Source: Candidatus Saccharimonadota bacterium
GTDB taxonomy: Bacteria; Patescibacteriota; Saccharimonadia; Saccharimonadales; UBA4665
Reading direction: 5' to 3'
Assembly (NCBI GenBank): GCA_016699935.1
Contig: CP064992.1
Coordinates: forward strand, 1,050,001-1,082,000
Length of the DNA stretch: 32,000 bases
Program-made: the position numbers and the translations under genes
Part shown: positions 1,509 through 28,537 of the stretch, one piece after another
How the letters are laid out: every line of letters starts with the position of its first letter
How positions within the stretch are numbered: position 1 is the first letter of the stretch
The notes under the pieces: model-generated
The model's input: the letters and a program-made list of their open reading frames with translations, nothing else
Database searches by the model: none
Told to the model about the DNA's origin: nothing

Positions 1509-1690
1509 GCTAAAATAACGGGGGGCATACCGCCCCACCCCTGTTAATTTGCGATACCACCGTATAAATACTCAATTTCGCGGAGCAATTCTGCCAGCGT
1601 TTTTTTGGCAAAAAGGTGGTGTCGAATTTTTGTCTCTCACTCTCAAAAAACGATTTTTGAGTAGTTTTGAGCATAAAGAGGACCTACTTT

Positions 1691-1699
1691 TGCTACAAT
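1691..1699 (+). promoter_or_regulatory. extended -10 promoter element (TGcTACAAT)
   Basis: TGCTACAAT at 1691..1699 lies about 6 nt upstream of the first helix of the structured element. No good -35 box is present at 17 bp spacing. Confidence 0.35.
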
Positions 1700-1704
1700 G
1701 AAGA

Positions 1705-1851: not shown

Positions 1852-1891
1852 ATGTGGACCTCCTGCGAATAGCAAATTAAAGGAGGTCAAA

Positions 1892-2311: not shown

Positions 2312-2312
2312 A

Positions 2313-2472
2313 ATGGAGGAAAAAGTGGACGCACCAAAAACAACCCAAATCAAACTATGTACGCGAGCAAAAGGGTCATAGTATCGTAAAGCATGTTCTT
2401 TTCGGCTGGCTGCTGCTGTGGATACCGGCAATTTATTACACCGTATCCCCAAACCACTACTGGCACACATAG
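2313..2472 (+). pseudogene. small membrane protein (about 48 aa, C-terminal SPNHYWH motif); one frameshift
   Basis: Candidate starts are ATG 2313 or GTG 2325 (GGAGG lies upstream). After the A5 run at 2336..2340 the other frame reads QPKSNYVREQKGHSIVKHVLFGWLLLWIPAIYYTVSPNHYWHT*, with the stop at 2470..2472. The antisense ORF 2282..2539 is rejected. Confidence 0.4.
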
Positions 2473-2860
2473 GGCAAGGTTTGTTGCCGCTTACACACGG
2501 GAATAATTTAGTTGAGTTATAATAAAACACTATTAACAATCTATGTATTTCATGTAGCAGCCAAATACGGAGACAGGACCGCTAAAAAGTCTGGGGCAGC
2601 ACAATACATGAAATGTAAGTAAAACGAGATACGACCTCGGCAAAAAAAACGGACTTACAAGCGTGGCTAACGATGCCATAGTGTACTTTTGTATGAATGG
2701 CTTGGGAGTATCAACGTGAGTACCGTTTCTCAAGAGCTTTCAGCAATCAGTCTTGTAAAGTTGATAGAGGCTTTGCAAAAATCAATGCGTCAACACCAAA
2801 GGTAAAATTAACGAGCGGTCAATAGACGACAATAACGGTGGGCGCATTATAATGTAGCTA

Positions 2861-4460: not shown

Positions 4461-4525
4461 ACCTCCACGCTTTTTACGGCACTGGCACCTCAAGCCAGCC
4501 TGTCTACCAATTCCAGCACGTCCGC
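4439..4525 (-). tRNA. tRNA-Leu(GAG), class II long variable arm, CCA encoded
   Basis: Reverse complement: GCGGACGTGCTGGAATTGGTAGACAGGCTGGCTTGAGGTGCCAGTGCCGTAAAAAGCGTGGAGGTTCAAGTCCTCTCGTCCGCACCA. Acceptor GCGGACG/CGTCCGC, anticodon loop TTGAGGT. Confidence 0.9.
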
Positions 4526-4894: not shown

Positions 4895-6542
4895 CTAACT
4901 CCGAGGCATGTGTTTATAGAGGTAGTCGAGCGTGTAGTTTGAACGAAGTGAAGAACGCATATCTTCCTTGTCTATGGCAATTTTTACACCCGGGTTTAAA
5001 ATACCAAATGGGTCAAAAATTTGCTTAATATTCTGGAAAACTGTGTATACATCTGATCCGTACATATTCTTAAGATAACTGCTTCGCAGACGTCCATCGT
5101 TGTGCTGTGCCGATGTTGAACCACCTAGGCGAATCACCAACGAATAGTACTCATCCATCAGTTTAAAAGCCTTCTGCCTATCACCAAGCTGGCTTATATC
5201 TAGATACGGCTGTACGTGAAGGTTGCCATCGCCGGCGTGGCCCCAAATCGCAACATCAAGCTTGAGCACTTCAAATAACCCATACACACCTTCGATGAAC
5301 TCTGCCAATTTTTCGAGTGGAACTATGCCGTCTTCAATTATGGGTATAGCCTTCGATTGCCCTCGCTGTACGCCAAAGGCTCGCCGAGGCATGACGTATC
5401 TTCCATAGCTCGGCTTGTTCGGCAGCGCGATGCTTCACGGGATTCTCGGGCGTTTTTATCAATAATCTGGCGGATTCGTTTCACATTTTTCTTTCGACGT
5501 CGATCATTCGGATCATCGAGCTCTACTATGAGAACGGCTTTTGGTAAAACATCGGGCAAAACTTTTTTCAGTTGATTTGGGTTAAGCTGATTGACAATAT
5601 TGAGTAAGTTTCCATCAACAAATTCAATTGCGCTGGGAATATTTGGCAGCGCTTTTAAGGCAATTGCGGCATCACAGGCCGCCTGAATACTATCGAAAAA
5701 GGCGGCAAATACAACTGTTTCGGGATTATGAACCTCTGTTTCGCACGTTATCTCTGTCACGATACCCAGTGTTCCTTGCGCTCCAACAAACAATGGCGTA
5801 AGGTCAAAACTACCGTCTTTACGCTTAACATCGAAGATGTTATATCCAGCAGTATTTTTACTGATCTCACGAAGTGTTTTATCTATTTTATCGCGATTTT
5901 CCTCTATAAGTTTATCGAGCGAGCGGTATACTTCGCCCTCAAACGTTGTCAGTCCAAGCTTTTTACCGAGTTCACGCTTTGTGATCCGTCCAGTTTCTAT
6001 CACCTCCCATTTGCGAGCACAACACGCAGTGATTTTACGTAATCTTTGGTAACGCCGTACTTGACAGACTTTTCGCCCGCTGCGTTATTGCCTACAGCTC
6101 CACCAATGGAGCTGTATTCGATGCTTGCTGGGTATGGGTAAAAACCGTTCATGGGTCTGGAGTGTTTGTTGAAGCCGTCCGTAGTTAAGGCCAGGCTCAA
6201 CGACGACAATGCCGGTTTTTGATCGAGTGAAACAATTCGGTTCATATGAGCCGGGAACACCATCATGATTCCACTCCCAACCGCACCGCCGCTGAGGTCT
6301 GTTCCCCAGCCCCGTGGTGTAATGGGGATAATCCGACCTCGCTCTGCCAGTTGCCAGGTAAAACGAGCTGTTTTACGCACATCGTTTTCATTGCGCGGGT
6401 ATACCACGATACTCGGTGCAATACTGAAGATACTGCAATCGGTCGAAAAATACCGACGAGCATCAGTGCTTGTCATTACCTCGCCTAGTAGGTGTTCTTG
6501 TAGATAGTGTGCTACTTTGCTCATGCTCCCCAGCCCTCTCAT
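4895..6542 (-). pseudogene. FAD-binding oxidoreductase (FAD-linked oxidase, GlcD/D-lactate dehydrogenase-like family); at least 4 frameshifts
   Basis: Three ORF fragments (6000..6542, 5338..6003, 4895..5392) read colinearly. A further compensated indel pair (T5 run at 6216..6220 and A5 run at 6140..6144) hides LDQKTGIVVVEPGLNYGRLQQTLQTHERF. Motifs include SSIGGAVGNNAAGEKSVKYG, and the C-terminal part reads WGHAGDGNLH. Confidence 0.8.
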
Positions 6543-6884: not shown

Positions 6885-8674
6885 TTACTTAGGAATTTGG
6901 CCTTGTTTTACTGCCCAGTTTGTTACCGAATAGTAGCGGTCGGCGTCAGTATTGATGCTGTGCTCATTCAAGCCCTGCACGACTCCTCTGGATAGGTAAA
7001 GAATTTTTGGTTGGAATAATCCGACCGCTGGAGCATCATCTTGCCATGCCTTGAGAAATGCTTTGTATTTCAAAGCTCGAACCACTGGATCCTGCCGAGT
7101 CCGACCGCCTTCTAGGGCCGAATCTGCCACAGCCGACTTGTATTCAGAGAAGTTCAAGCGATTACTGCTCCGCGGGTCCGCCTGGGTGCTACTCCAATAC
7201 GCGTAAACATCAGGGTCGGGACCTATGGAAACTGTATATAACAATGCTGAAAAAGCGTGTGCTTCTACAGAACTTTGAAAGTCAGTGGATTGTTGCAGCG
7301 CAGCCTGTACATCGACCCCGACACCCCGCCACTGCTCTTTCAATTTTCGCAGTATTTGCTGATTTTCCGGTGTCTCTTCGGCAACAACTATGATGCTAAG
7401 GGGCTGATTACTTTTTACCCTAATACCATCTTTTCCGTTCACCCAACCTGCTTGCTCGAGGATTGTATTGGCAGCGGCTGGGTTGTAGGCGGGTTGATTA
7501 TACTCTTTCGCGTAGCCTGTCTGCGCAACAAGGAACGGCTGATGCACAAGGCGCAAATCATCGCTTAGAGCGCTTTTAATGCTCTGTTTGTCGGTTGCGA
7601 GAACAAGCGCCCGCCGAACTGCCCCATCGCTCAATGCGCCTTCTGAAGTTTTAAAGAATACCATGGTGGCGGCTGTTGCATTAAACCGATAGGTATAGAG
7701 CGAGCTGTCATTGTCAAGCACATCAGGCAATCGTTTTAGTCCAGCAATTCCTTCGATTGACCGCTTTTTGTAAGCTGAAACCATCTTTTCTTCATCGTCA
7801 TAGACATGCAAAATGAAGCCATCTAGTTTCGGGCGTCCGGTGTTGTACTCTTCATATGCCTTAAGCGACAAAAGCGTCGAGGCTTCGCCGGAGCCAGCCG
7901 CACTACCAAATTGCAACGACCCCACATGAACGGACCCGCACCAACTGGTTCCGTCGTATTGAAGCTGCTCGTACGTAGCTGCGAAACCGGTACCTTTTGA
8001 AGCAAATGTGCGGGAATGATCCCAGTAGTCAAACTGTGCGGAAAAGCAGTCAGCGCACTCGGTAACCCAAAGATAACCGTTTGTGGGTTTGGCGCAGTGA
8101 TCACTATGCCTTGCCAACTACTCAATAGAGGTGAGCGTGTGTCAGGGTTCTGGATAGTGCGGAAGGTATAGACAACATCTGCGCTCGTGAGCGGAGCACC
8201 ATCATGCCACCTCAGACCCGGCTTTAAAGTAAATGTATACTGCTTACCAGAATCATCGGCCTTATATTCTTTTGCGAGATCTCCGATTAGCTGATTGTTT
8301 CCGTCGTACTTCAGTAGACCAGCAAATAGCAGCCGTGACGCCGCTGTATCAACCGCTCCGGTAGCATAAATGGGGTTTGCATTACTATATGTTCCGAGCA
8401 TCCCCTCGTTATACACTCCACCTGGCACTGGTCCAGATTTGAGATAGTAGCTACTGAGATTGACAGCTTGAAGGAACGTAAGCGCACTGATGGTCACGAC
8501 AAGAAACAGCCATCCGCCAACGAATCGTTTCACGTCAAGTAGTCGTTCCAGCCTGTCTATAAAGTGCGAGTCGAATCCAGCTTCAGCGCGAGATGCGACT
8601 GATCCAACCTGTCGCTGGTGGCGCCGGAAAGATCGTCTAATTCTTAATTTGGTTGCATGATTCATGAATGACAT
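6885..8674 (-). pseudogene. ABC transporter substrate-binding protein, peptide/nickel type (SBP family 5), N-terminal membrane anchor; one frameshift
   Basis: Fragments 7823..8674 (N-terminal; TM segment FVGGWLFLVVTISALTFL; ...FTLKPGLRWHDGAPLTSADVVYTF) and 6885..8117 join near 7925..7935 (EPVGAGPFMW then GSLQFGSAAGSGEAST...). Confidence 0.75.

Positions 8675-13361: not shown

Positions 13362-13369
<8 letters not shown>
12383..13369 (+). CDS. multi-pass membrane protein with a basic N-terminal tail, function unknown
   Basis: Intact 328-aa ORF with a Lys/Arg/Pro-rich first 60 aa followed by about 6 hydrophobic helices. Its stop overlaps the ligA start (ATGGCTAG). Confidence 0.65.
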
Positions 13370-15374
<2,005 letters not shown>

Positions 15375-15378
<4 letters not shown>

Positions 15379-15923
15379 CACATTTACCAGTCTTTATAAC
15401 CAGTAATCAACATAAAGCTGATTACTTGAATCGCCAGCTTGGACTAAAAGTTGAACATATACCACTGGAACTTGACGAGATTCAATCTGTCAACCTGCAC
15501 CTAGTTGTTTCACACAAGCTCATGCAAGCATACAAAATAGTGGGAAAACCAGTAATAGTTGAGGACGTAAGCCTGGTTTTTAGTGCACTTAATGGGTTGC
15601 CCGGTCCGTTCATCAAGTGGTTTATTGAGCATGCTGGCGCAGAGGCTTGTTGTCGCATGCTCGACGGTTTTAGCGATAGATCAGCCGTCATTACATGCAC
15701 CTATGGTTATTATGACGGGAGTGAGATCGTCTATTTTGATAGCGAGATGAAGGGTATGATTAGCAAGCACCCGAGAGGGGCAAACGGTTTTGGCTTTGAC
15801 AGAATTTTTGTGATGGACGGTGACACGCGAACCCGCGCCGAGTTGCCACAAGATGAAGTGGAGAAAACTTATGCTGACCAAATGAAACCATTCAAACAAG
15901 TCAGCGACTACTTAAGATCGTAA
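15375..15923 (+). CDS. non-canonical purine NTP pyrophosphatase (HAM1/ITPase/RdgB family)
   Basis: Intact 182-aa ORF: FITSNQHKADYL, EDVSLVFSALNGLPGPFIKWF, GANGFGFDRIF. Its start overlaps the ligA stop (ATGA). Confidence 0.75.
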
Positions 15924-15972
15924 ATATAATCAATTAGTAAAATATATCCGAATATACTATGCTAAAACCATA

Positions 15973-16674
15973 ATGCTAAAATCAAAAACTACACAGTTCA
16001 ACTGTTTTTCACCGCCAGTGATGTTGGCAACTTTTTTGATAGAAATAGGCCTTGCCACGTGGACGCTATGGCGATACCGGCAAACACTATTGGTTAAGCT
16101 TGTGACTGCAATTTTAGTTTGTCTTGCGGTGTTTCAACTGGCCGAGTTCACTATTTGCGAAAATATGTTCGGTTTGTCGGGTATTACTTGGGCTAGAATT
16201 GGCTACGTGGCTATTACAGCTCTACCAGCGCTTGGTATTCATGCCTTGGCAACGATTGCTGGGCGTAAAGCAAGGTTGCTTGTTTGGGTGTCTTATGCAG
16301 CAATGTTAGCCTTTATGGGTTATTTTGCCTTCGTTGGGCATGGTATAACTGCGACTACTTGTGGTGGCAATTATGTAATATTTAAAACTAATGCCGCTGC
16401 CACATTGTGGTACGCCTACTATTATTACGGACTAGAGTTAATTACTCTTTTCGCGGCTGTCTATTTTGCTATAAAGTCTGGCAATCGTCGTACAAAACAA
16501 GCACTGTACGGGTTAACGCTCGCCTATTCTACCCTTCTTGTACCGACGGCAACTGTCAATATCCTAAACGACGAGCTGATTCATGCCGTACCAAGCATAA
16601 TGTGTGGTTTTGCTGTGTTTTTGGCACTAATCGTGACACTGTATGTATTACCACGATCCGCCGAAGTAAAATGA
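15973..16674 (+). CDS. polytopic membrane protein (about 7 TM), function unknown
   Basis: Intact 233-aa ORF that is hydrophobic throughout. I recognise no catalytic motif. Confidence 0.6.
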   Translation: MLKSKTTQFNCFSPPVMLATFLIEIGLATWTLWRYRQTLLVKLVTAILVCLAVFQLAEFTICENMFGLSGITWARIGYVAITALPALGIHALATIAGRKARLLVWVSYAAMLAFMGYFAFVGHGITATTCGGNYVIFKTNAAATLWYAYYYYGLELITLFAAVYFAIKSGNRRTKQALYGLTLAYSTLLVPTATVNILNDELIHAVPSIMCGFAVFLALIVTLYVLPRSAEVK

Positions 16675-16870
16675 CATGCCAGCTGCATTGACAGTTACGG
16701 CCATAGAGATTATGCTTATGTTAGTTCGTGCGCTAATTGCGGCGTTTGAAACAAACACCTTACAAATACAAACAGGAATTGTGCCGGCAGCATGAGCCAC
16801 AAGTTTTTATGCTGAGCGGTCGTCTCTCTTGAAGACGCTTCACCCGCCGCGGGTGGGCGCGCACGAAACA

Positions 16871-16897
16871 AAAAACGGGTCAGAGCACCCGTTTTTT
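16871..16897. terminator. bidirectional rho-independent terminator between convergent genes
   Basis: AAAAA-ACGGGT-CAGAGC-ACCCGT-TTTTT. It lies between the + strand membrane protein gene and the - strand HAD gene. Confidence 0.55.
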
Positions 16898-17060
16898 GGT
16901 ATATACACTATCTGCAACTTGCTAGCGGTGTCTGCTTAGATCGTTTTGTTATCTAGTTAGACCTGAGTAAATATACTGACCCTACCTAACAGCAGAGTCA
17001 TTTTTTATGTCAACGTTTTTATAAATACTGATAAAACTTATTACTCTATTGATGAAAATG

Positions 17061-17819
17061 CTATTTAAACTGATCAGAAACGGAGTTAAAAATTAGATCC
17101 GCAAGACCATCTTCATCAACACTTTTACATACAAAATCAGCTTGCGATTTCAATAAGTCAGTGGCATTGCCCATGGCAACTTTCATGCCGACTCCACGAA
17201 ATAGATGGACATCGTTATTACCGTCGCCAACACCCATTGTCTCATCTCTGGAAATGCCAAGCATCGTTAAAAGTTCAGCGATTGCATGCTCTTTCGTAGC
17301 TAGCTTATTAGTAATATGGATATCTAGGCCCTCACCAGTCCAAGACAATACTCCTGCGGCTGTGATTCCTGAAATATCGTCTAGTTGTTTGAGTAGTTCC
17401 GAGCCCTTTTCCGAACAATGCATAGCGTACATAACATTAATGGGCCCCTCTAAATTACGGGATCTTGCTGGTGCGCCTTCACCCAGCAGCTCATTCCGGA
17501 CTAAAATTTCAAAATCGTAAGGCTTACATAGCTTCAACACCGCCTGGACATCTTTGGGGTCAATCAGGATTTCCCAAACTACTTCGTCAGTGTGGGGATT
17601 GATTATTTGGGTGCCGGCAGAAATAATGCACGGTTCATCAAGATTTAATTTATCTAGGATTGGTTTGGCATTTGTTATGGGTCGTCCTGTCGCAGCGGAT
17701 AACCGAATGAATTCTTTTGAATCGGCTATAGTTTGGACTAGTCTATTAGAGGGTAGTCCGTTTGGTATATTTGGAATCGCTGTACCGTCTAGATCAAAGA
17801 TTATTAGCTTTGGTTTCAT
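17061..17819 (-). CDS. HAD-superfamily hydrolase, Cof-type (HAD-IIB) phosphatase
   Basis: Intact 252-aa ORF. Motif I is IIFDLDGTAI, followed by SAATGRP, and the C-terminal motif is GVGDGNNDVHLF. Confidence 0.75.
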   Translation of the reverse strand: MKPKLIIFDLDGTAIPNIPNGLPSNRLVQTIADSKEFIRLSAATGRPITNAKPILDKLNLDEPCIISAGTQIINPHTDEVVWEILIDPKDVQAVLKLCKPYDFEILVRNELLGEGAPARSRNLEGPINVMYAMHCSEKGSELLKQLDDISGITAAGVLSWTGEGLDIHITNKLATKEHAIAELLTMLGISRDETMGVGDGNNDVHLFRGVGMKVAMGNATDLLKSQADFVCKSVDEDGLADLIFNSVSDQFK

Positions 17820-18023
17820 TGAACTAATAATACCAGTTTTTAACGATTGTGAGATAGGTATAGCATATTTCTAACATGACAATAAACATTTATCATAAGG
17901 GGCTCAAGGAGTTGAACTATTCAACAGGGGTAAGAAAATCCAGGAAAACAAAATGATCACATTCGAAAATGTGATCAACTGAGGTGAATAGTTCTATCAT
18001 ATTCAAAATGACACCGTTCTCAA

Positions 18024-18044
18024 TTCGTGGCAGGTGCTCTTGGA
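18024..18044. repeat. degenerate copy of the tRNA-Trp 3' end and flank (18 of 21 positions); candidate distal att remnant
   Basis: TTCGTGGCAGGtGCtCtTGGA at 18024..18044 versus TTCGTGGCAGGGGCACGTGGA at 20605..20625. The first 11 nt are identical. Confidence 0.4.
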
Positions 18045-18185
18045 CGATTACCGAACTTATTGTGATGTAATAGGTATTTATGAGATGAAGGAATACGATG
18101 AAGAATATCTATCATGGAGAGATGGTTAGATTTGTACTGCTAAGAAATACTGCGTAAGAGTATAATTCAATGTATAAGAGGAAGT

Positions 18186-18791
18186 ATGGCGTTACCGAAG
18201 TATAAAGAAGTAAAAGCAATCATCGAGAAGAGAGTTTCACGGCGTTTTCACGATGTCTCCAGACTGGAGATGCGGCCATTCAACGAATCGCCGAGCTTTA
18301 TTCAACATGCAGGAAAACTTTAATACACAACACCCTAGACAACCAAGAATCTAAAAGACTATAAGTTACAAAATGGCCGAGGCTAAACATATAATTGAAC
18401 ACTCAAAAATACCAGATATGACACCTGAGGAAGTGTTTGTGATAGTCGACGAAATGGCTAAGGAAATAGGTAGCCAGATGGCTAAATATCAATTTGAGGT
18501 TCTTAATAAGACAATTGAGGAGACGGGCAATAGTGTTGACGCAAAAGGCCAAAAGCTTAGTCCTGAATTATTTCTGGAGACGATCAGTATGATGAGTATT
18601 TCCTTTGATAAGGATGGAAATCCGAAGCTACCAACAATTGTAATCAGCCCAAAGACAGCCGACCAATGGAAACGCGTAATGTCTGGAAGCGGAAGCAGAC
18701 CCAGAACACAAGAAAAAAATTTGATGCGATTATAGCGCAGAAAAAGAAGGATTTCGATGCAGAGCAAGCTAGTAGAAAACTGGTTGACTAA
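18186..18791 (+). pseudogene. hypothetical protein (about 200 aa), first gene of the islet cassette; about 4 frameshifts
   Basis: GAGGA RBS followed by ATG 18186. The frames read MALPKYKEVKAIIEKRV.. / ..FSRCLQTGDAAIQRIAELYSTCRKTLIHNTLDNQESK / KTISYK-MAEAKHIIEHS...ADQWKRVMS (ORF 18373..18735) / EAEADPEHKKK / FDAIIAQKKKDFDAEQASRKLVD*, with the stop at 18789..18791. Shifts fall at the A4 run at 18353..18356, GG at 18685..18686 and the A7 run at 18713..18719. The N-terminal joins are the least certain. Confidence 0.4.
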
Positions 18792-20337
18792 CGCCGGCGA
18801 ACTCACATACACAGCACCCTTCGTTCAGTTGCTTATTAACGAAGGGTACACGGTTTTGCAAGCAAAAGGTGGTCCCACAGAACAGGGCAAGGATATTATT
18901 GCGCGAGACACAAATGGGAATATTCACTGTTATCAGCTCAAACATGGGAGTATTGGCAGTAGCGATTGGCAGCAATATCGGGCTCAATTAGACGACCTTA
19001 CCGAAATTCCACCAAAACACCCTTCGATTCCAGCGAATTTGACTTCATGGCAGTGTCATCTAGTCACTAATGGTGATATTACTGGTCAAACATCAATTAC
19101 TATTGTCGATTATTCTAAGGCCAGAAGTAAAAAAGGTAATATGGCACTGCAAACGACCTCAAAAGAGGAGCTGTTACGACGATTCACCGACTCATTTGGC
19201 AGATTTTTCCCGATAGAGCCAAATGATATACGTGTATTCTTCGAGCTATTCTGTGATGACGGTGATAACACTCTAAAACGAAGTGAATTCAAATTGCTTT
19301 TTGAACATTACCTCAGCGAATTTGACGTTAAGAGATCAAAGCAAAAAAAGCTAGAATCTATCCAAGCTGCACCGATTCTCACAAGTTACCTGCTAACCAA
19401 TAAATATGCTAAAGAAAACTACACTGCTTTAATAGATGCATGGGTACTAATGCTGCTGACAATACTGCACTACGCAGCTAAATGGTCACTCGATGAAAAG
19501 AAATACGCTGCAACAGAAAGCCTAATACTTGACGAGATAGACAGACTAATTTCTTGTCTATTTAATGATGTCGCAACAGATGACAATAATCTGGTAGATG
19601 CATCCTATGGTCTGTTCTCCGAACCGATAATGACATACAAGCTAAGGTGCGCGGAATTGCTTGGCTATATATCTGCAGCAGTCAATTATTCCTCCTTGTC
19701 GGGTCGAGCTTTGCCTGTTGTGGACGTAGTTTTGGCGGAGAAAATGGCGCAAATGCACCAGAAAAAGATCGTGATTAGTGAGGCAGGATTATCATTCCAA
19801 TTCAACTATATCCTGGCATCTGCCATACATGGCAAGGAAACAGCTACTGTCGCCGAACTTATCAGGCTGGTGGATGGTGTACTATCCGCGCATGTTGATG
19901 AGGGAGATGGTCTTTTAAGCCCTTACTACACTACCGAACAAGCTGTGGCAAATATGCTTGATGTGGGTGAACCGATTGACGAGACGTTTAATAATCGGAG
20001 TTACATGCTTTGGCCTGCAGTACTATTACTCGCCAAATACGACCAACGTGACTTCTTGAATGATCGATGGCAGGTTCTTTCCGAAATCTCAATGGAGGAG
20101 ATTGTTGCACATGACTCAAATGATCTGCTACTTTGGAGGATCAAAAATGCAGACCTGTTAGACACTTTTCCAAACTCAGCGCAATCATGGGCAAGCCTAA
20201 GAGCGATAGCGACTAAGTCGTATGACAACGATATACCGGCTATCTTACTCAAACGCAAATATCTCATCCCGCTTTGGGTGTTAGCGATGCCGCACAGACT
20301 AACACCAAATGTCATATTGTCACTGGTGAATAAGTAA
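18757..20337 (+). CDS. Mrr-like PD-(D/E)xK nuclease N-terminal domain fused to an uncharacterised, mostly helical region of about 400 aa
   Basis: Intact 526-aa ORF. The N-terminus FVQLLINEGYTVLQAKGGPTEQGKDIIARDTNGNIHCYQLKHG...HLVTNGDIT matches the Mrr_cat layout (core D in GKDIIA, QxK in YQLK). I saw no P-loop or other known motif downstream. The start lies 35 nt inside the preceding gene. Confidence 0.6.
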   Translation: MQSKLVENWLTNAGELTYTAPFVQLLINEGYTVLQAKGGPTEQGKDIIARDTNGNIHCYQLKHGSIGSSDWQQYRAQLDDLTEIPPKHPSIPANLTSWQCHLVTNGDITGQTSITIVDYSKARSKKGNMALQTTSKEELLRRFTDSFGRFFPIEPNDIRVFFELFCDDGDNTLKRSEFKLLFEHYLSEFDVKRSKQKKLESIQAAPILTSYLLTNKYAKENYTALIDAWVLMLLTILHYAAKWSLDEKKYAATESLILDEIDRLISCLFNDVATDDNNLVDASYGLFSEPIMTYKLRCAELLGYISAAVNYSSLSGRALPVVDVVLAEKMAQMHQKKIVISEAGLSFQFNYILASAIHGKETATVAELIRLVDGVLSAHVDEGDGLLSPYYTTEQAVANMLDVGEPIDETFNNRSYMLWPAVLLLAKYDQRDFLNDRWQVLSEISMEEIVAHDSNDLLLWRIKNADLLDTFPNSAQSWASLRAIATKSYDNDIPAILLKRKYLIPLWVLAMPHRLTPNVILSLVNK

Positions 20338-20426
20338 CTTTAACCGAACTATCTTAACAGGTGGCAAAAATAAGAATAAAAATAACCGAACCTGAATTAC
20401 AGATTCAAAAATCATTTTGTCCGACT

Positions 20427-20445
20427 TGGCAGGGGCACGTGGAAT
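20427..20445. repeat. perfect 19-bp direct repeat of the tRNA-Trp 3' end (att-like)
   Basis: TGGCAGGGGCACGTGGAAT at 20427..20445 is identical to 20609..20627, which covers the CCA, the acceptor 3' strand and part of the T arm on the antisense strand. Confidence 0.7.
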
Positions 20446-20581
20446 ACTTTGTATAGCCTTGCATTGTGCTCGGAACAAGATTCCTGCGCGCAATGCTTCG
20501 TTATCGAACACACGATCTACGCATCTTGCTTTGCAATCTGCTAGATCGTGGTTCGACTCAGCATACCTATAACACGAAAAA

Positions 20582-20606
20582 AGACCAGCAGATGCTGATC
20601 TTTCTT
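20582..20606. terminator. weak hairpin flanked by A6 and a T-rich tract, just 3' of tRNA-Trp
   Basis: AAAAAA-GACCAGCA-GA-TGCTGATC-TTTCTT. The stem has one mismatch and a tight loop. Confidence 0.3.
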
Positions 20607-20608
20607 CG

Positions 20609-20683
20609 TGGCAGGGGCACGTGGAATTGAACCACGATCTAAGGTTTTGGAGACCTTTATACTGACCGTTGTACTATGCCCCT
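20609..20683 (-). tRNA. tRNA-Trp(CCA), CCA encoded
   Basis: Reverse complement: AGGGGCATAGTACAACGGTCAGTATAAAGGTCTCCAAAACCTTAGATCGTGGTTCAATTCCACGTGCCCCTGCCA. Acceptor AGGGGCA/TGCCCCT, anticodon loop CTCCAAA. Confidence 0.9.
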
Positions 20684-20767
20684 TCGGCTAAGAACAGATA
20701 TGATTATACTGGTGAGTGGGCTTTTTTCCAATGGTTCAATTGGACGGTAAGCGTTATACTAGCTATT

Positions 20768-22375: not shown

Positions 22376-22526
22376 TTTACTCTAATGACCAGTGCACGAG
22401 CACCAAAACCCAATCAATGACTAAATACCCGAATTTTCGAATGAACTCCCTGTGGTTCTCAGGATATTTGGTTACTGCTTGGTCATTCAGGTACAGCAAT
22501 TTGGGCTTTTACAGAGGAGTATCTGT

Positions 22527-23914
22527 ATGAATGATTATCTTGATAGGCCAATCATCCTTATCATATTCGGTATAACCGGAGACTTGTCGCAGCGGAAGCT
22601 CTTGCCCGCTCTTTATCACCTCATCAAGCACAGACAGTTGCCTGAAAACGTCACCATCATTGGTGTAAGCCGAAAGAAAATTCCTGTCTCAGAGGTGTAC
22701 GAGGATCTCAAGACTAAAATTCACGGCGAAGATTACGACCGAGTCGTCGTGGAGCAACTGCACGATGCCACGCGGATGGTGCAGGTGGATCTCGATAACC
22801 AAGATGATTATACGCGGCTTCTTGAAAAACTGCGTGTGATTTCTGATGAGCTGGGCTCAGGAGTTAGCCGACTGTATTACCTTTCGATCCCGTCACAAGC
22901 CTTTGTGAACGTTGTACATCACCTAGGCGAGACAAACCACCATGAGCCATTCGGGCAGGACGGCGAGCGGCCGCGACTACTGGTAGAGAAACCGTTTGGC
23001 TACGATGTAGCGTCAGCTGAAACGCTCGTGAGGGCGGCTGACGAGCATTTTGGCGAACAGCAAACATTCCGTATAGACCATTATCTTGCGAAAGAAACGG
23101 CTCAAAATATATTAACCTTTCGGTTTCAAAACCCGTTATTCCAGTCCATTTGGAATACACGGCACATCGAAAGTATCCAGATTGTGGCGCACGAAACCAT
23201 CGGCATAGAGAAGCGGTCGGTATTTTACGAACAAACAGGAGCCTTGCGTGATATCTTGCAAAGTCACCTCTTGCAACTGCTTGCGCTCATCACCATGGAA
23301 AAGCCTGCGGCGCTTGAGAGCCATGATATCCATAAAGCCAAGCTTCGCCTTCTTGAGAGATCGACACAATAACGCCTGAATCAGTTGAAACACTAGCGGT
23401 TCGAGGGCAATACGACAGCTACAAAACAGAGGTAGATAATCCTCATAGTCATGTTGAAACATTCGCGAGATTACACCTGAACATCGATAACGAGCAGTGG
23501 CGCGGCGTAAAAGTTACTATAGAAACCGGGAAAGCCCTTCATGAAAAATGTACCGAGATTATTGTGCGGTTTCGCGCTAACGAAGACGCACCTGGCACAA
23601 ACACACTGACATTCCGCGTGCAACCGCAAGAAGGCATTACCTTATCATTGCAGGCAAAGCGGCCAGGGCTTGCAAAAGAAACAGAAACCGTACGGATGGA
23701 TTTTGACTACGATCGAGCCTTTTATGGCTTGGCTGGGGAGGCTTACGAACGTGTTATCATCGATGCCGTGCGCGGTGACCAGTCACTCTTTGCCACCGCT
23801 CAAGAAGTACTAACTTCGTGGCGAATCGTTGAAAACGTCTTGCAAGCGTGGAAAGCAGACGGCAAAAATCTTCGTCTGTACCCTGTTGGCTCACCTGCTC
23901 ATGAAATTTTGTAA
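22527..23914 (+). pseudogene. zwf: glucose-6-phosphate 1-dehydrogenase; one frameshift
   Basis: AGAGGAG RBS followed by ATG 22527: MNDYLDRPIILIIFGITGDLSQRKLLPALYHL, RIDHYLAKE. A frame change near 23350..23356 (LRLLE / IDTITPESVETLAVRGQYDSYK...ETFARLHLNIDNEQWRGVKVTIETGKAL) continues through ORF 23564..23914. Confidence 0.85.
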
Positions 23915-24036: not shown

Positions 24037-25280
24037 ATGAGGGTATTAATGCTTGGGTGGGAATTACCACCACATCATACCGGGGGGATGGGCGTAGTCT
24101 GTTACCAGATGTGCAAGCAATTAGCACGGACCGGTGCACAGATAGAGTTCGTATTGCCATACACCGCCGATTTTTCACACATTGACTTTATGAAAATAAA
24201 CCCTGCTCTTCCTGATAACGTCGAGGAGGTCATTGGTTCGCGTGCTGGTAGTACGTATGACAGTCAGTATTTTGAATACGTACTACGTGATGGCTCGACT
24301 CGTGGCGCCGCCATGAATGAGCACCAAGCAAACTATCTGCAATACGTATCACGACTTGTCGAGCTTGGGGACTATGATGTTATTCATGCCCACGACTGGT
24401 TAACCTTTAGAGCGGCACTGGCGGCAAAGCAAGCCACTGGGCTGCCCTTGTTTGTACACATCCACTCGACTGAGTATGATCGTTCTGGGGGCAACAATGG
24501 GAATCCGTTGTTCGCGAGATTGAGTACATTGGACTACACCTTGCCGACAAAATTTTTGCAGTAAGCCAGGCTACCAAAGATACGATTGTCCGTGAATATG
24601 GCATCTCGCCCGATAAAATTGAAGTTGTACACAACGCTATGGAGTTTCAGGCGCATGAGCTCTACGAAGATACCTCAGACAATGCCTTTCGATATTTGAC
24701 TCGCATGCAACAAGCCGGTTACGGAGTAGTTGTTAGTGCTGGCCGTCTTACCATCCAGAAAGGACTGCCTCACTTGCTCAAAGCGTTTCGTATTGTGGTT
24801 GATGAGCGGCCTCAGAGCCTCTTGCTCATCGTTGGCCCGGGCGAACAGTACCATGAACTGATTGAGCTTTCAGCCGAACTTGGCCTCAGTGGCAATGTAA
24901 TTTTTACTGGGCATCTCAACGGTACGGGCAAACAGTGGCGTGACGCGTTTCGAGTAGGCAACCTGTTTGTTATGCCCAGCGTCTCTGAACCCTTTGGCTT
25001 AACACCGTTTGAGGCACTCGCGCAGCATACGCCAGCACTGATAAGTAAGCAGACAGGTGCAAGTGAAATCTTACACAGTGTTCTCAAGGTAGATTACTGG
25101 GACACCCAAGAAATGGCCAATAAGATTGTCGCCGTTCTGGGTCACAAAGAGCTGGAAGAAACTTTGGCAGAAGAAGGACACAGTGAACTCATGAAACAGA
25201 GCTGGCAACGCCCAGTTGAGACCGTGCTCGAGCACTACCATCGACACGCCAGTCAGCACAGGGAGCTTGCATATGTCTGA
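24037..25280 (+). pseudogene. glycosyltransferase (GT4/GT5-like, glycogen/alpha-glucan synthase type); one frameshift
   Basis: MRVLMLGWELPPHHTGGMGVVCYQMCKQLA.. Fragments 24037..24564 and 24639..25280 join near 24510 (GGNNGNPL / VREIEYIGLHLADKIFAVSQATKDTIVREYGI). The C-terminal part reads PSVSEPFGLTPFEAL. Confidence 0.75.
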
Positions 25281-26500
25281 ACAGAGCACCGACAAGCGGG
25301 CAATCGTATTATACCTACACGTACACCAACCGTTCCGCGTACGCCACTACACTATTTTCGATGCTGGTCGCAACCACGATTACTTTGACGCGCCAAGTGG
25401 TAGCCGTGAAAACAATGCCGATATTGTACGCAAAGTAGCGCACAAATCGTACGTGCCGACAAACGAACGCCTTATGCGCATGATTGAGCACAATCCGAAG
25501 TTTAAGCTTTCGCTCTCCATAACTGGCACCATCCTTGAGCAACTTGAGACCTATGCACCTGACGTCTTAAAAAGCTTTCAAGATCTGGTAGCGACTGGGC
25601 GTGTCGAGATTGTCGGTGAAACATACCACCATTCTGCTCGCGTTTTTCTACAACCGCGATGAGTTTGAGACCCAAGTACAAATGCACCGTGATATCGTTC
25701 GAAGGCTCTTTGGTGTTGAGACAACCGCGTTTCGAAATACCGAACTGAGTTACAATAATGATCTTGCCTATTGGGCAGACCAAGCTGGCTACAAGGCTAT
25801 ACTGAGCGAAGGCTGGGATCCAGTGCTTGGCTGGCGTAGCCCGAATTTCCTCTACCGTCCGGCTCACACCGAAAATGTGAAACTTCTCACGAAAAACTAC
25901 AAGCTCAGCGATGACATTGCGTTCCGGTTTAGTAACAAAGACTGGGAAGAATACCCAATGACCGTAGATAAGTTTATGAACTGGACAAAAGACTCCTGGG
26001 ATCAACCACTCCTCAACCTGTTCATGGATTATGAAACATTCGGCGAGCACCAGTGGGAAGATAGCGGCATATTCGACTTTTTGGAGCACCTACCTAAGGC
26101 CTGGCTTGAGAAAGAGGCTCACACCTTTATGACAGTGTCTGAAGCGGCAGACGCGTTTGAAGCCAAAGACACCGTGGACTGTCCGCAAACGGTTACCTGG
26201 GCAGACACCGAACGCGACTTGACCGCTTGGCTTGGCAACAAGATGCAACAAGGCGCCATCGCGAGTCTCTACGGATTGGCTGGACCGATGATGCAAAGTG
26301 GCGACTTTGCCCTCATCGAAGATTGGCGCAAGCTACAGACAAGCGACCATTTCTACTACATGTGCACGAAATACTTCAGTGATGGCGACGTCCACGCCTA
26401 CTTTAGCCCGTACGAAAGTCCGTATGAGGCATACATTGCATTCATAAATGCTTACCACGACCTAAAGTTCCGACTCACCGAGAAAGGTCTGCCGGTCTGA
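25273..26500 (+). pseudogene. glycoside hydrolase family 57 protein (alpha-amylase / alpha-glucan-processing type); one frameshift
   Basis: ATG 25273 overlaps the upstream stop (ATGTCTGA): MSEQSTDKRAIVLYLHVHQPFR... The frame changes near 25635 (VEIVGETYHHS / LLAFFYNRDEFETQVQMH), then ...FMDYETFGEHQW... Confidence 0.75.
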
Positions 26501-26611
26501 TGACACTAGGGTGGGTCGTTGCTCGATTTTGGAATTTTGGATTTGTTGTTTTGAGTTTATTTTGTATTTGGATTTTGGTGCTTGTTCATTTTCGCTCCAA
26601 CGGAGTTAGTC

Positions 26612-28537
26612 ATGGGTAGGCCTGTTATCCTGGGCAATGGTGCCCTGACTGTCGGGCTTAACGAATCGGGTCTTGTTCATGATTTTTACTATCCGTATGT
26701 TGGCCTCGATAATCTCACGACGTCACGGAGTGTCCAGCATCGCATAGGCGTATTTGTCGACGGCACGTTTTCTTGGGTCGACGACGGATCATGGATAACA
26801 CACGTCAACGTCGAACATGACGCACTCGTCAGCGATGTACAGCTTGCAAACGAAACACTCCACCTGACGCTTCGCCTGAGCGATTTTGTCGACACGACAT
26901 ATAATGCCTTTTGTAGAGATATTCGTGTTCAGAACATGTCCGACCAAACACGTGATATCCGGGTATTTCTCCACCAGGTATTCGAAATATCTCGTGGTGG
27001 CCGCGGTGACACCGCGCTGTATGTACCCGATGGGCCTTATATCCTTGATTACAAAGGCCGGTGCAGTCTACTTGTGTTTGCACGAAGTAGCGAAGGCACA
27101 CCGTTTGATCAATACTGCGTTGGAAATTATGGGATTGATGGAAAAGAAGGTAGCTGGCGCGATGCTGAAGACGGCGAGTTATCGGGTAATGCCGTCGAGC
27201 ATGGAGGTGTCGATTCGGTCATATCTTCTGTGGTTACAGTACCTGGCAACGGTGAATCGTCGGTAGAATACTGGGTCGCTGCTGCCGACTCGCAGTACAG
27301 TGCTGAAAAAATTCATGATCAACTGCTGACACACGGTTTAGCAGCCCGGCTTGAGAGCACCCGGAGTTGGTGGCAAAAATGGCTCCATACCGCCAAACCA
27401 TCACTCACCTCTGTTCCAGAACTCGAGCAGATAGCCATCAAACAATCGCTGATGGTCATAAAAGCACACACCGACCGTCGGGGAGGTATTATCGCCAGTT
27501 GTGACTCGAGCATCTATAACTACGGCCGTGACTACTACAGCTATGTCTGGCCGCGTGATGGTGCCTATGCGATGTGGCCGCTCATCAGGCTTGGCTACAC
27601 TGAGGAGCCAAAGAAGTTTTTGAGTTCTGCCGTGACATAATGAACCCAGATGGCTACATGATGCACAAATACCAGCCAGATAAAGCTATTGGTAGCACCT
27701 GGCACCCACTCGTACACGGAAAACGATCCGAGCTTGCCATTCAGGAAGATGAAACTGCGATTATCGTTTATCTCCTCGCAGAGTTCTACGAGGAGACCGA
27801 AGACAAAGAATTTGTCCAAAACCTGTATGAAACCATGATCCAGCCAATGGCAAATTTCATGTCCGACTTCAGAGATGATACAACCAAACTTCCCCCATGC
27901 CAGCTACGATCTGTGGGAGGAAAATTCCTAACCAACACATACACCACTGCCCTAGTGCATCGAGCACTCAGTACCGCGGCTGACCTTGCCGAGCTTTTTG
28001 AGTACCCAGATGACGCAGATAAGTGGCGTACGGTTGCTACTGACATAGCCGAAAACTGCCAAGTATTTATCGATCCGACGCGGGGTTTCTGCGAAAAGGG
28101 CTACCTACTCGATGACAACGGAGAACTCCAGTTTGATAATACCTCGATGTTTCAAGTGCATACGGCAGTATGATGTTTGCCACAAAGTCATTGGGGCTAC
28201 CAACATCCGTGCTACTTTTGATGGTATCGAGAATTTACCTTAACCAGTCATCAGTAGGCGGTAGCCCTCGCTATGAAAGCGATTCCTACTTCAGAGCTGA
28301 CCCAACGAGCATGGGTAATCCATGGTTTGTCACGACGCTCTGGATTGCACAGTACTACCTGCAGACCAACCGTGATGAAGAGGCACAGCGCTTAGTGGAT
28401 TGGACGCTCTCCCACGCACTTCCTAGTGGCGCACTAAGCGAACAAATTAATCCCAAAGACGGTAGCCCCGTTTCAGTACTCCTCTCGTATGGAGCCACGC
28501 CGAACTAATCAACACCATTCTGGATTTGCATAGCTAG
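26612..28537 (+). pseudogene. glycoside hydrolase family 15 (glucoamylase/glucodextranase-like); at least 7 indel events
   Basis: GGAG followed by ATG 26612: MGRPVILGNGALTVGLNESGLVHDFYYPYVG. Fragments 26582..27640, 27640..28173 and 28170..28508 are supplemented by alternate-frame stretches: KKFFEFCRDIMNPDGY (T5 run near 27616..27620), LPHASYDLWEEK (27892..27924), GATNIRATFDGIENL (about 28193..28245), and the tail TPLVWSHAELINTILDLHS* ending at 28537. Confidence 0.8.

What the first reader, a model, noticed from the sequence alone, without database searches (positions are those of the whole stretch)
18024..20683. A small genomic islet inserted at tRNA-Trp, delimited by copies of the tRNA 3' end
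tRNA-Trp(CCA) lies at 20609-20683 on the minus strand. Its last 19 nt (TGGCAGGGGCACGTGGAAT) recur perfectly at 20427-20445. A degenerate third copy, which also includes 4 nt of flank, lies at 18024-18044 (18 of 21 positions, first 11 identical).

The approximately 2.4 kb between the outer and middle copies holds only two overlapping non-housekeeping genes and looks more AT-rich than the flanking HAD and pgl genes (by eye, not computed).

This is the classical footprint of site-specific integration into a tRNA 3' end. Here no integrase is left, and there is a tandem (three-site) arrangement, which suggests either two successive events or a decayed element.
Basis: partly seen in the sequence, partly recalled or inferred. 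Interest (0 to 1): 0.7.

Follow-up and report, generated by a model that had tools for sequence, protein, structure and literature searches.

The report
Decayed mobile islet beside tRNA-Trp
Next to the tRNA-Trp gene of an uncultured Saccharibacteria genome lie two stacked leftovers of DNA that once inserted into the end of the tRNA gene, one carrying a two-gene nuclease cassette that moves between genomes; this is a familiar kind of scar, though poorly described in this group of bacteria.

Summary
tRNA-Trp(CCA) lies at 20609-20683 (-). Its last 19 nt recur exactly at 20427-20445 (R2), and an 18/21 copy lies at 18024-18044 (R3).

The reading as an integration scar holds in outline, with corrections.

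- **Cargo.** It is a conserved operon of a 201-aa gene and a 526-aa gene. The "120-aa ORF" is a fragment of the 201-aa gene, broken by four 1-nt indels in an indel-prone assembly. The 526-aa protein has an N-terminal PD-(D/E)xK nuclease fold. The pair occurs in unrelated defence or mobile islands, and next to tRNA-Trp or tRNA-Asn in other Saccharibacteria.
- **R2.** In the closest cassette relative, homology runs straight into the tRNA at this point. R2 is therefore the former tRNA end, displaced by a later 182-bp insertion: a 163-bp spacer "X" plus a new 19-nt end.
- **R3.** It is the best-conserved piece of the HAD-upstream spacer in the closest HAD relative, which has different cargo beyond it. 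One relative carries an exact 17-nt repeat around the same cassette.

No integrase is left in the islet. No empty site could be retrieved. AT-richness does not separate the islet from HAD.

Verdict: an ordinary decayed, accreted tRNA-linked islet, and a new member of a known kind.

The parts
20609..20683 (-). tRNA-Trp(CCA), intact. Its last 19 nt (20609-20627) form repeat R1.
   Evidence: ARAGORN; Rfam tRNA 65.8 bits; sequence.
20703..20731 (-). Promoter-like site for the tRNA (TTGGAA-17-TATAAT).
   Evidence: Consensus scan, 10 of 12 matches. Consensus match only.
20446..20608 (.). Spacer X: 163 bp between R2 and the tRNA. Interpreted as the remnant (or the whole) of the youngest insertion.
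   Evidence: Unique sequence with no homolog in 1.44 Mb of fetched loci. As minus-strand RNA (with 26 nt of flank on the R2 side and 4 nt on the tRNA side) it folds at -82.9 kcal/mol, z = -8.0. Window/L094 colinearity stops at R2.
20573..20610 (-). 17-bp hairpin plus T-run directly 3' of the tRNA: the terminator of the present tRNA gene, supplied by X.
   Evidence: Fold; sequence.
20503..20557 (-). 19-bp imperfect hairpin. Both arms resemble the 5' half of the tRNA T-arm (inverted copy TAGATCGTGGTTCGACTC at 20542-20559; direct copy at 20503-20519).
   Evidence: Inverted repeat I1. Local alignment scores 36 (inverted; the aligned stretch also spans the terminator palindrome, so partly trivial) and 22 (direct, not significant alone). 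Fold.
20427..20445 (.). R2: exact 19-nt copy of the tRNA 3' end (T-loop middle to CCA). Interpreted as the displaced former 3' end of the tRNA.
   Evidence: Colinearity with L094 up to this point, where L094 continues into its tRNA.
20386..20408 (-). Terminator-like hairpin between ORF526 and R2. It sits 3' of R2 in the tRNA orientation and also directly follows ORF526. Orthologous to the perfect hairpin AACCGAACCTAAT...ATTAGGTTCGG in L094.
   Evidence: Scan; alignment.
18757..20337 (+). 526-aa protein with an N-terminal PD-(D/E)xK nuclease domain (invariant E42, D46, Q60-x-K62) and a C-terminal helical domain of about 400 aa.
   Evidence: 48 homologs; invariant columns. AlphaFold model pLDDT 88.9. 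Foldseek: NucS/EndoMS probability 0.97-0.99 over about 125 aa, LmuA 9hr5 E 0.04. Rhodococcus plasmid 'restriction endonuclease' 31% identical over aa 6-145. PADLOC: LmuA E 0.004 for the window protein; 4 of 26 homologs hit OloB at E down to 1.7e-5.
18186..18791 (+). 201-aa partner gene, overlapping ORF526 by 35 nt. It is interrupted in this assembly by four 1-nt indels (two deletions, two insertions; three at A or G runs).
   Evidence: tblastn frames +3/+2/+1/+2/+3. DNA alignment with L094, L001 and L095. The frame-corrected translation is 94% identical to the intact P0169. The pair is always together in L001-L006 and L094-L104.
18161..18166 (+). TATAAT, a likely -10 box of the cassette promoter.
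   Evidence: Read from sequence. The same (G)TATAAT(G) sits upstream of the 201-aa gene in L094 and L001. Inference only.
18010..18129 (+). Remnant of a small ORF (...DTVLNSWQVLLDDYRTYC...EYLSWRDG*), homologous to a 53-aa ORF with a strong Shine-Dalgarno in L094. It has no canonical start codon here.
   Evidence: tblastn E 2e-8. Codon comparison: 13 identical, 9 synonymous, 16 non-synonymous; core 5 synonymous against 1 non-synonymous.
18024..18044 (.). R3: degenerate copy of the tRNA 3' end plus 4 nt of flank. Interpreted as the oldest displaced tRNA end or recombination junction.
   Evidence: A 37-nt block at 18028-18064 is 84% identical to L094 while its surroundings are not. GAGCAC(T)CTGCCACGAA is the best local match between the HAD-upstream spacers of the window and L087 (p = 0.008).
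17954..17977 (-). Terminator-like hairpin (10 bp plus T-run) about 50 nt 3' of R3 in the tRNA orientation. Candidate original terminator of tRNA-Trp.
   Evidence: Scan.

Best explanation
The 2.6 kb downstream of tRNA-Trp is a stack of two non-autonomous remnants of elements that integrated by site-specific recombination into the 3' part of the tRNA gene. Each event supplied a new 3' end plus a terminator and pushed the previous end outwards.

**Step 0 (inferred).** tRNA-Trp was followed by its own flank and terminator (17954-17977) and then by HAD. R3 is what remains of that original end.

**Step 1 (inferred from comparison).** An element carrying the 201-aa/526-aa nuclease operon, probably an anti-phage defence cassette, integrated. 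After this the tRNA ended at what is now R2, with the hairpin at 20386-20408 as its terminator.

[quoted passage not shown] It left an exact 19-nt duplication (R1/R2). It has since been reduced to, or always was, the 163-bp structured spacer X, which now provides the tRNA terminator.

**Recombinase.** No recombinase gene remains in the islet. Any further movement would need one supplied in trans or by a newly accreted element. A large serine recombinase is a candidate type, because one reads into the 3' end of tRNA-Leu 14 kb away and others flank the same cassette in relatives.
For: **Shown**
- Exact 19-nt repeat from mid-T-loop to CCA. This is the geometry reported for the 20-bp ssrA repeats of Dehalococcoides islands (PMC3146451).
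- All three copies are followed, in the tRNA orientation, by a hairpin plus T-run.
- Window and L094 are colinear from 18176 up to TGGCAGGGG. There L094 continues into a tRNA and the window into X.
- The cassette is mobile. The same gene pair sits next to type I restriction-modification, Mrr, GmrSD, Fic, ParB-methylase, T4SS genes and large serine recombinases in L001-L006 and L099-L104. It sits directly 3' of tRNA-Asn in L002-L004.
- Homology among these loci is confined to the two genes.
- L095 has an exact 17-nt direct repeat (10 nt of flank plus TGGCAGG) around the cassette.
- L094 has three further TGGCAGG copies that bound single-gene modules.
- R3 is statistically unusual.
- R3 is the best-conserved piece of the HAD-upstream spacer in L087, where a Nudix gene follows instead of the cassette.
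- L087 shares 13 nt, CTGCCACGAAGAA, with the window's tRNA end plus flank (p = 0.002).

**Inferred**
- The order of events.
- That X is a remnant.
- The identity of the recombinase.
- The defence role of the cargo.
Against: - No integrase or recombinase lies in 17.8-20.7 kb.
- No relative with an unoccupied tRNA-Trp/HAD junction could be found. The genome, metagenome and contig look-ups gave only distant, non-syntenic loci.
- Composition does not set the islet apart from HAD.
- R3 lies in a small ORF whose conserved core shows mostly synonymous change relative to L094. Homology with L094 extends at least 18 nt to its left. Its resemblance to the tRNA could therefore be partly a by-product of coding for W-Q-x-L-L-D-D, and it is not a sharp boundary.
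- R1/R3 and the L095 repeats include flank 3' of the tRNA, whereas R1/R2 do not. One single recombination geometry does not explain both.
- The assembly is indel-prone, so fine details are uncertain. This applies to the state of the 201-aa gene and to single bases in the repeats.
Confidence: 0.6

Rival explanations
1. There is only one integration scar. The R1/R2 duplication with spacer X is real, but the outer copy R3 is a chance or coding-driven resemblance inside a small gene of a three-gene cassette. That cassette has long sat next to tRNA-Trp by descent in this clade.
For: - R3 alone has p of about 0.01.
- Its TGGCAG encodes the conserved W-Q of a small ORF. The 12-codon core shows 5 synonymous changes against 1 non-synonymous relative to L094.
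- The small-ORF homology extends left of R3.
- The three closest cassette homologs (76-79% identical) all lie next to tRNA-Trp, about the same divergence as HAD (75%). That is compatible with vertical descent.
Against: - L095 has a 17-nt exact repeat around the same cassette, with 10 nt outside the tRNA.
- The flanks beyond the cassette differ in every lineage: HAD, Nudix, or a 102-aa ORF.
- The R3 motif is conserved in L087, which lacks the small ORF and the cassette at that place.
- L094 carries further copies that bound unrelated single-gene modules.
Confidence: 0.2
2. This is an active cassette platform. The region 3' of tRNA-Trp in these Saccharibacteria is an array of small integrase-less cassettes (0.2-2.4 kb). 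Each carries a tRNA-end-like recombination site of about 35 nt plus a terminator, and is inserted and excised by a recombinase encoded elsewhere. This would be functionally analogous to integron cassettes.
For: - Modules of 182 bp and about 2.4 kb in the window, and about 0.55, 0.7 and 2.4 kb in L094, are each bounded by a TGGCAGG copy.
- Repeat sites that are 74% identical over 39 nt (own count on the alignment) precede different cargo in different genomes: L095_c1 precedes the nuclease cassette and L094_c2 precedes a Nudix gene.
- The 37-nt site is conserved between window and L094 while its neighbouring DNA is not.
- X contains long imperfect hairpins.
Against: - Only three contig families show this, two of them truncated inside the tRNA.
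- No circular forms, no empty sites and no dedicated recombinase were identified.
- R3 and the L094 copies are degenerate, as expected for dead scars.
- The same picture arises from ordinary accretion and decay.
- No matches to these sites or to the cassette were found in the viral-contig collection.
Confidence: 0.12
3. The tandem arrangement, or part of it, is an assembly artefact of an error-prone long-read metagenome assembly.
For: At least seven housekeeping genes in the window are split by frameshifts, as is the 201-aa gene.
Against: - The errors seen are single-base indels, not rearrangements.
- X is unique sequence, not a collapsed or duplicated segment.
- The cassette-next-to-tRNA arrangement is reproduced in independent short-read contigs from other samples.
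Confidence: 0.03

Closest known systems
[quoted passage not shown]
   Same: - Tandem islands lie 3' of a small structured RNA gene, each bounded by a direct repeat of about 20 bp of its 3' end.
[quoted passage not shown]
- Some units lack the integration module and were proposed to be cis-mobilizable.
- A large serine recombinase ORF runs across the att site. The window shows that geometry at tRNA-Leu (3168-4460 against 4439-4525).
   Different: - The target here is tRNA-Trp, not tmRNA.
- The units are far smaller (0.18 and 2.4 kb) and none keeps a recombinase.
- The outer repeat is degenerate.
- The cargo is a nuclease operon rather than reductive dehalogenases.
- No recombinase has been linked to this site.
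Cis-mobilizable elements (CIMEs) and tandem accretion, as in ICESt1/ICESt3-type elements (review PMC5704250)
   Same: [quoted passage not shown] A three-site tandem arises by integration of a second element into an att site of the first.
   Different: - Whether the sites are still recombination-proficient is unknown. R3 has 3 mismatches in 21.
- No parent ICE or IME was identified.
- Mobilization was not tested.
Classical tRNA-targeting integrative elements with a T-loop-to-3'-end identity block (sublocation scheme of Williams, Nucleic Acids Res 2002; cited from my own knowledge, not read here)
   Same: The R1/R2 identity block starts in the T-loop and ends at the CCA. The tRNA is reconstituted by element DNA.
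   Different: No tyrosine integrase lies adjacent. The R1/R3 and L095 repeats extend into the 3' flank instead of into the T-arm.
Olokun (OloA/OloB) and Lamassu (LmuA) nuclease effectors of anti-phage systems (PADLOC models; bioRxiv 10.1101/2025.07.10.664194)
   Same: - The 526-aa protein joins a PD-(D/E)xK nuclease domain to a large helical domain.
- It is encoded in a two-gene operon found in defence islands.
- There are weak profile and fold matches to OloB and LmuA.
   Different: - The matches are marginal. The window protein itself does not hit OloB, and Foldseek TM-scores to LmuA are 0.18-0.25.
- The partner is a 201-aa coiled-coil protein with no match to OloA, LmuB or any library family.
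- No NTPase is present.
Integron gene cassettes
   Same: Short, mostly single-gene, recombinase-less modules sit in a one-sided array next to a fixed site, each with its own recombination site.
   Different: - No IntI, attI or attC-type sites are present.
- The repeats are direct copies of a tRNA end.
- The modules carry their own promoter and terminator.
- The resemblance is in layout only.

Membership tests
tRNA-linked genomic island formed by site-specific integration | Intact tRNA gene at one boundary | tested here: met
   tRNA-Trp at 20609-20683, Rfam 65.8 bits.
tRNA-linked genomic island formed by site-specific integration | Direct repeat of the tRNA 3' end at the distal boundary | tested here: met
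   R2 is exact over 19 nt. R3 matches 18 of 21, p about 0.01.
tRNA-linked genomic island formed by site-specific integration | Integrase or recombinase gene inside the island | tested here: not met
   The only ORFs are the 201-aa and 526-aa genes and a small ORF remnant. None has a recombinase domain.
tRNA-linked genomic island formed by site-specific integration | Absent from the same site in related genomes (empty site or alternative occupancy) | tested here: inconclusive
   No empty site was found. L087 shows alternative occupancy (Nudix) beyond an R3 ortholog, but on a 2.8-kb contig without the tRNA. Other relatives are not syntenic.
tRNA-linked genomic island formed by site-specific integration | Composition distinct from the flanks | tested here: not met
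   GC is 0.413 against 0.426 for HAD. The low-GC trough spans 17.0-20.2 kb and includes HAD.
Cis-mobilizable element (CIME) | Lacks integration and transfer genes | tested here: met
Cis-mobilizable element (CIME) | Retains functional attL and attR | not testable with these tools
   R1/R2 are identical and R3 is degenerate. Recombination proficiency needs an assay or read evidence.
Cis-mobilizable element (CIME) | Derived from, or mobilized with, an ICE or IME using the same site | tested here: inconclusive
   Relatives carry the cassette beside large serine recombinases or T4SS genes. None of these was shown to use tRNA-Trp.
Olokun defence system | OloB nuclease | tested here: inconclusive
   4 of 26 family members hit the OloB profile (best E 1.7e-5). 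The window protein does not.
Olokun defence system | OloA partner | tested here: not met
   The 201-aa partner family has no OloA or other PADLOC, Pfam, NCBIfam or PHROG match.
Lamassu defence system | LmuA effector together with the LmuB SMC-like ATPase | tested here: not met
   The LmuA match is marginal (E 0.004; Foldseek E 0.04, TM 0.18-0.25). No SMC-like gene lies in the operon in any locus.
Integron | IntI tyrosine recombinase, attI and attC sites | tested here: not met
   No tyrosine recombinase among the long ORFs (at least 110 aa) that were scanned. The repeats are tRNA-derived direct repeats.

The most novel reading that the evidence does not exclude
The stretch 3' of tRNA-Trp in a clade of Saccharibacteria may be a working cassette platform. 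Small recombinase-less modules would each carry a tRNA-end-like site of about 35 nt plus a terminator. A recombinase encoded elsewhere would insert, stack and exchange them, possibly one of the large serine recombinases that read into tRNA 3' ends in these genomes. On this reading the small ORF across R3 is a coding tail that is completed only in the excised circle. That would be an integron-like gene-capture system built on a tRNA gene, in ultra-small symbiotic bacteria.
Probability: 0.12. Interest if true: 0.75.

Novelty: new member of a known kind. Interest (0 to 1): 0.35.

Why it matters
Mobile DNA and defence systems of Saccharibacteria and other candidate-phyla-radiation bacteria are poorly charted. 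A full-text search for Saccharibacteria with genomic island, integrase and tRNA found only two papers, neither on this subject.

- **Integration hot spot.** This locus indicates that tRNA-Trp is a recurrent integration hot spot in one Saccharibacteria clade.
- **Untested cargo.** It identifies a widespread, unannotated two-gene nuclease operon. It has 48 and 71 detected homologs for the two proteins, found in Saccharibacteria, Nocardia and a Pyrinomonadaceae assembly. The operon travels with defence islands and is worth testing as a defence system.
- **Candidate integrases.** It points to large serine recombinases that overlap tRNA 3' ends as the likely integrases in these genomes.

None of this changes current concepts. 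It extends known island biology to a new lineage.

Tried and rejected
- **Empty-site search.**
  - A genome-contig scan with pgl gave 50% identity at best, with no tRNA-Trp next to pgl.
  - A metagenome scan with a 47-nt tRNA-Trp pattern gave one hit, in the classical secE-nusG context.
  - Contexts of the closest HAD homologs were not syntenic.
  - The window's own proteins are not indexed for look-up.
- **Phage or plasmid origin.**
  - The 19-nt core, both extended site patterns, ORF526 and its family profile gave nothing in viral contigs.
  - The phage collection gave no match. In plasmids only a Rhodococcus restriction-endonuclease N-domain matched.
- **A fourth tRNA-like copy at 17898-17917.** It scores 20, at the null median, and was rejected as unsupported.
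- **A decayed full pseudo-tRNA in L087 or in X.** ARAGORN and Rfam find none. Only short pieces align.
- **An ORF completed across a circular junction.** Frames stay open for L095 and for R2-to-R3, but without ribosome-binding sites or homology. This was not pursued.
- **The 201-aa protein fold.** The model is only moderate (pLDDT 70.6) and has no structural match.
- **Repeats of the tRNA-Asn end in L002-L004, and of the tRNA-Leu end in window 1-4438.** None was found.


Full report
**Source and observation.** Names attached to identical proteins place the window in a Candidatus Saccharibacteria metagenome-assembled genome (locus tags IPL68_06950 and IPL68_06955, 1.23-Mb contig). ARAGORN and Rfam place tRNA-Trp(cca) at 20609-20683 on the minus strand.

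The last 19 nt of the tRNA (plus strand TGGCAGGGGCACGTGGAAT) recur exactly at 20427-20445. Parsing the tRNA shows that this block starts after the fourth base of the 7-nt T-loop and ends at the encoded CCA.

The third copy at 18024-18044 (TTCGTGGCAGGTGCTCTTGGA) matches 18 of 21 positions, including 4 nt of flank. No shuffle of the window reproduced three such matches. An unbiased local alignment gives it a score of 27. The null best score has mean 20.4 and 99th percentile 27. The exact copy scores 38.

**Corrections to the description.**
- *Composition.* The islet has GC 0.413 against 0.467 for the window. HAD has 0.426 and ORF526 has 0.429. With 2.4-kb windows, the lowest-GC and most atypical tetranucleotide stretch is 17.0-20.2 kb, which includes HAD. 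Composition does not delimit the islet.
- *Gene content.* In every relative, the 526-aa gene is preceded by a 201-aa gene that overlaps it by 35 nt. In the window that gene (18186-18791) is present but changes frame four times.
- *Nature of the breaks.* They are four single-base indels: two deletions and two insertions, three of them at A or G runs. The frame-corrected translation is 94% identical to an intact homolog (P0169).
- *Assembly quality.* zwf, ligA, a glcD-like oxidase, a solute-binding protein, glgA, a GH57 gene and a GH15 gene in the same window are also split. The breaks are therefore most likely assembly errors, though recent decay is not excluded.

**The cargo.** The 526-aa protein has no Pfam, NCBIfam or PHROG match. 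Its 48 detected homologs occur in Saccharibacteria, two Nocardia strains and a Pyrinomonadaceae assembly.

- Invariant residues E42, G44-K45-D46 and Q60-L61-K62 form a PD-(D/E)xK-type motif.
- A confident AlphaFold model (pLDDT 88.9) matches NucS/EndoMS nuclease domains over about 125 residues (probability 0.97-0.99). It matches Lamassu LmuA only weakly (E 0.04, TM 0.18-0.25).
- A Rhodococcus plasmid 'restriction endonuclease' aligns to residues 6-145.
- PADLOC gives LmuA at E 0.004 for the window protein. OloB reaches E 1.7e-5 for 4 of 26 homologs.
- The 201-aa partner has 71 homologs and a largely helical, moderate-confidence model. It matches nothing in any library or in the PDB.

The pair is embedded among type I restriction-modification genes, Mrr, GmrSD, Fic, ParB-methylase, Eco57I-type enzymes, a reverse transcriptase, T4SS genes and large serine recombinases in other contigs. 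DNA homology among these loci is confined to the two genes. I infer a mobile two-gene nuclease cassette with a likely defence role. It works like nuclease-plus-partner systems but is not a member of Olokun or Lamassu, because their second components are absent.

**Evidence that the repeats are recombination scars.**
1. The two closest cassette contig families end, 30-125 nt after the 526-aa gene, in the 3' end of a convergent tRNA. The tRNA ends read L094 ...TGGCAGGGGAGACAGGACTTGAACCTGC and L095 ...TGGCAGGGGCATGAGGAATCGAACC.
2. Window and L094 are colinear from 18176 through the terminator hairpin up to TGGCAGGGG. There L094 continues into its tRNA and the window into the unrelated 163-bp spacer X. 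R2 is therefore the former 3' end of the tRNA. R1 plus X is a later 182-bp insertion that recombined in the T-loop. This is the best-supported step.
3. L095 carries an exact 17-nt direct repeat, AATAATTTCTTGGCAGG, on both sides of the cassette, with ten of those bases outside the tRNA.
4. L094 has three more TGGCAGG copies to the left. They bound a Nudix gene and a 190-aa ORF as separate modules. In ungapped register all copies keep traces of the T-arm.
5. In the tRNA orientation, each of the three window copies is followed by a hairpin and T-run: 20573-20610, 20386-20408 and 17954-17977. This fits each copy having once been the end of the expressed tRNA gene.
6. In the closest HAD relative (L087-89, 75% amino-acid identity), the HAD-upstream spacer is homologous overall (global score 20.5 against a null of 0.1 +/- 5.8). 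Its best local match to the window is exactly the R3 motif, GAGCAC(T)CTGCCACGAA (p = 0.008). Beyond it L087 has a Nudix gene instead of the cassette. L087 also shares 13 nt, CTGCCACGAAGAA, with the window's tRNA end plus flank (p = 0.002).

So the window resembles L087 to the left of R3 and L094 to the right of it, with the repeat as the overlap. That is the pattern expected at a site-specific junction.

**Difficulties.**
- No recombinase lies in the islet.
- No unoccupied site could be retrieved. The genome scan with pgl reached only 50% identity. The metagenome scan with the tRNA found one non-syntenic locus. The HAD relatives are rearranged.
- R3 lies inside a small ORF remnant (18010-18129), homologous to a 53-aa ORF with a strong Shine-Dalgarno in L094 (E 2e-8). 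In the 12-codon core WQxLLDDYRTYC, five of six codon differences are synonymous. That points to protein-level constraint. The homology also extends at least 18 nt to the left of the repeat.
- The R1/R3 pair and the L095 repeats include flank 3' of the tRNA, whereas R1/R2 do not.

These points leave room for a rival in which only X is a scar and R3 is partly a coding coincidence. I give that about 0.2, because it does not explain L087, L095 or the L094 array.

**Spacer X.** X (20446-20608) has no homolog in the 1.44 Mb of loci fetched and no Rfam match. Folded as minus-strand RNA with a few flanking bases on each side, it gives -82.9 kcal/mol with z = -8.0. The fold has three parts:
- the tRNA terminator;
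- a 19-bp imperfect hairpin whose two arms both resemble the 5' half of the tRNA T-arm;
- a third hairpin.

I read X as the stub of an element, or a miniature one, whose end supplies the present tRNA terminator. The T-arm-like arms are unexplained.

**Which recombinase?** This is inference only. At 2892-4460 the window encodes a frameshift-split large serine recombinase with Resolvase, Recombinase and zinc-ribbon parts, XisF-like. Its last 22 nt overlap the 3' end of the convergent tRNA-Leu(gag) at 4439-4525.

Relatives show a large serine recombinase convergent with tRNA-Gln (L090). Others show one next to the cassette at tRNA-Asn (L002, L003) or within the same island (L099).

[quoted passage not shown] They use a serine recombinase whose ORF overlaps the att site, and units without the integration module were proposed to be cis-mobilizable (PMC3146451). 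That is the closest described system. The CIME/accretion model is the general frame (PMC5704250).

**Verdict.** The finding is a genuine, two-layer, recombinase-less remnant of integration at tRNA-Trp that carries a mobile nuclease operon. It is a new member of a known kind. Its interest is moderate, resting on the lineage and on the uncharacterized cargo. The most novel reading not excluded is a working tRNA-linked cassette platform, to which I give a probability of about 0.12.

Noticed in passing
window 2892-4460 (+) and 4439-4525 (-): A large serine recombinase, split by a frameshift into a Resolvase N-terminal piece (2892-3101) and a 430-aa XisF-like piece with the Recombinase domain and a zinc ribbon. 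It reads 22 nt into the 3' end of the convergent tRNA-Leu(gag). This suggests a second integrative element at another tRNA. No tRNA-Leu repeat was found in 1-4438.
   Followed up: partly
window 4895-6542, 6885-8674, 13362-15378, 22452-23914, 24037-25280, 25216-26500, 26582-28508: Housekeeping genes are each split into two or three ORFs by frameshifts: a glcD-like oxidase, a family-5 solute-binding protein, ligA, zwf, glgA, GH57 and GH15. The assembly is indel-prone, so apparent pseudogenes here should not be trusted.
   Followed up: partly
window 18048, 20341, 20383 (+): The 9-mer TWACCGAAC occurs only three times in the 32 kb. All three are on the plus strand and all are at the ends of the islet: 4 nt after R3, 4 nt after the ORF526 stop, and inside the terminator before R2. 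The pattern was chosen post hoc; 2 of 100 shuffles gave three or more matches.
   Followed up: partly
window 20446-20608 (-): The 163-bp spacer, folded with a few flanking bases, is extraordinarily stable as RNA (z = -8.0), with three long hairpins. Two arms of the middle hairpin look like the 5' half of the tRNA T-arm. It has no Rfam family and no homolog in the fetched loci.
   Followed up: partly
L094 1-3725: An array of modules lies 3' of a tRNA: a 190-aa ORF, a Nudix gene and the nuclease cassette. Each is preceded by a TGGCAGG copy (at 62, 762 and 1317), and hairpins read by eye as terminators lie near the copies.
   Followed up: partly
L002/L003 7072-10860; L004 267-4059: The same 201/526 cassette lies directly 3' of tRNA-Asn, co-oriented with it. 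A large serine recombinase or a resolvase fragment sits just beyond it, followed by Fic and type I restriction-modification genes. No tRNA-Asn repeat was found in the DNA held.
   Followed up: partly
L090 3108-4837; L092 9824-10750: In HAD relatives, a large serine recombinase is convergent with tRNA-Gln (L090). In L092 the HAD gene itself starts 102 nt 3' of a tRNA-Gln. HAD may often sit at tRNA-linked variable regions.
   Followed up: no
window 15800-20200: The low-GC trough of the window covers the 233-aa membrane-protein gene, HAD and the left half of the islet. HAD has the lowest GC3 of the genes checked (0.368). The variable region may extend beyond R3.
   Followed up: no
window 20350-20359 and L094 1223-1232: The 10-mer TATCTTAACA occurs once in each. 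It sits at the right end of the cassette in the window and just left of the small ORF in L094. This could be a hint of circular permutation or simply chance.
   Followed up: no
L099 6835-21151: The cassette sits in an island with a reverse transcriptase (RVT_1), a ParB-methyltransferase, T5orf172, a 1315-aa Eco57I/ResIII enzyme and a large serine recombinase.
   Followed up: no
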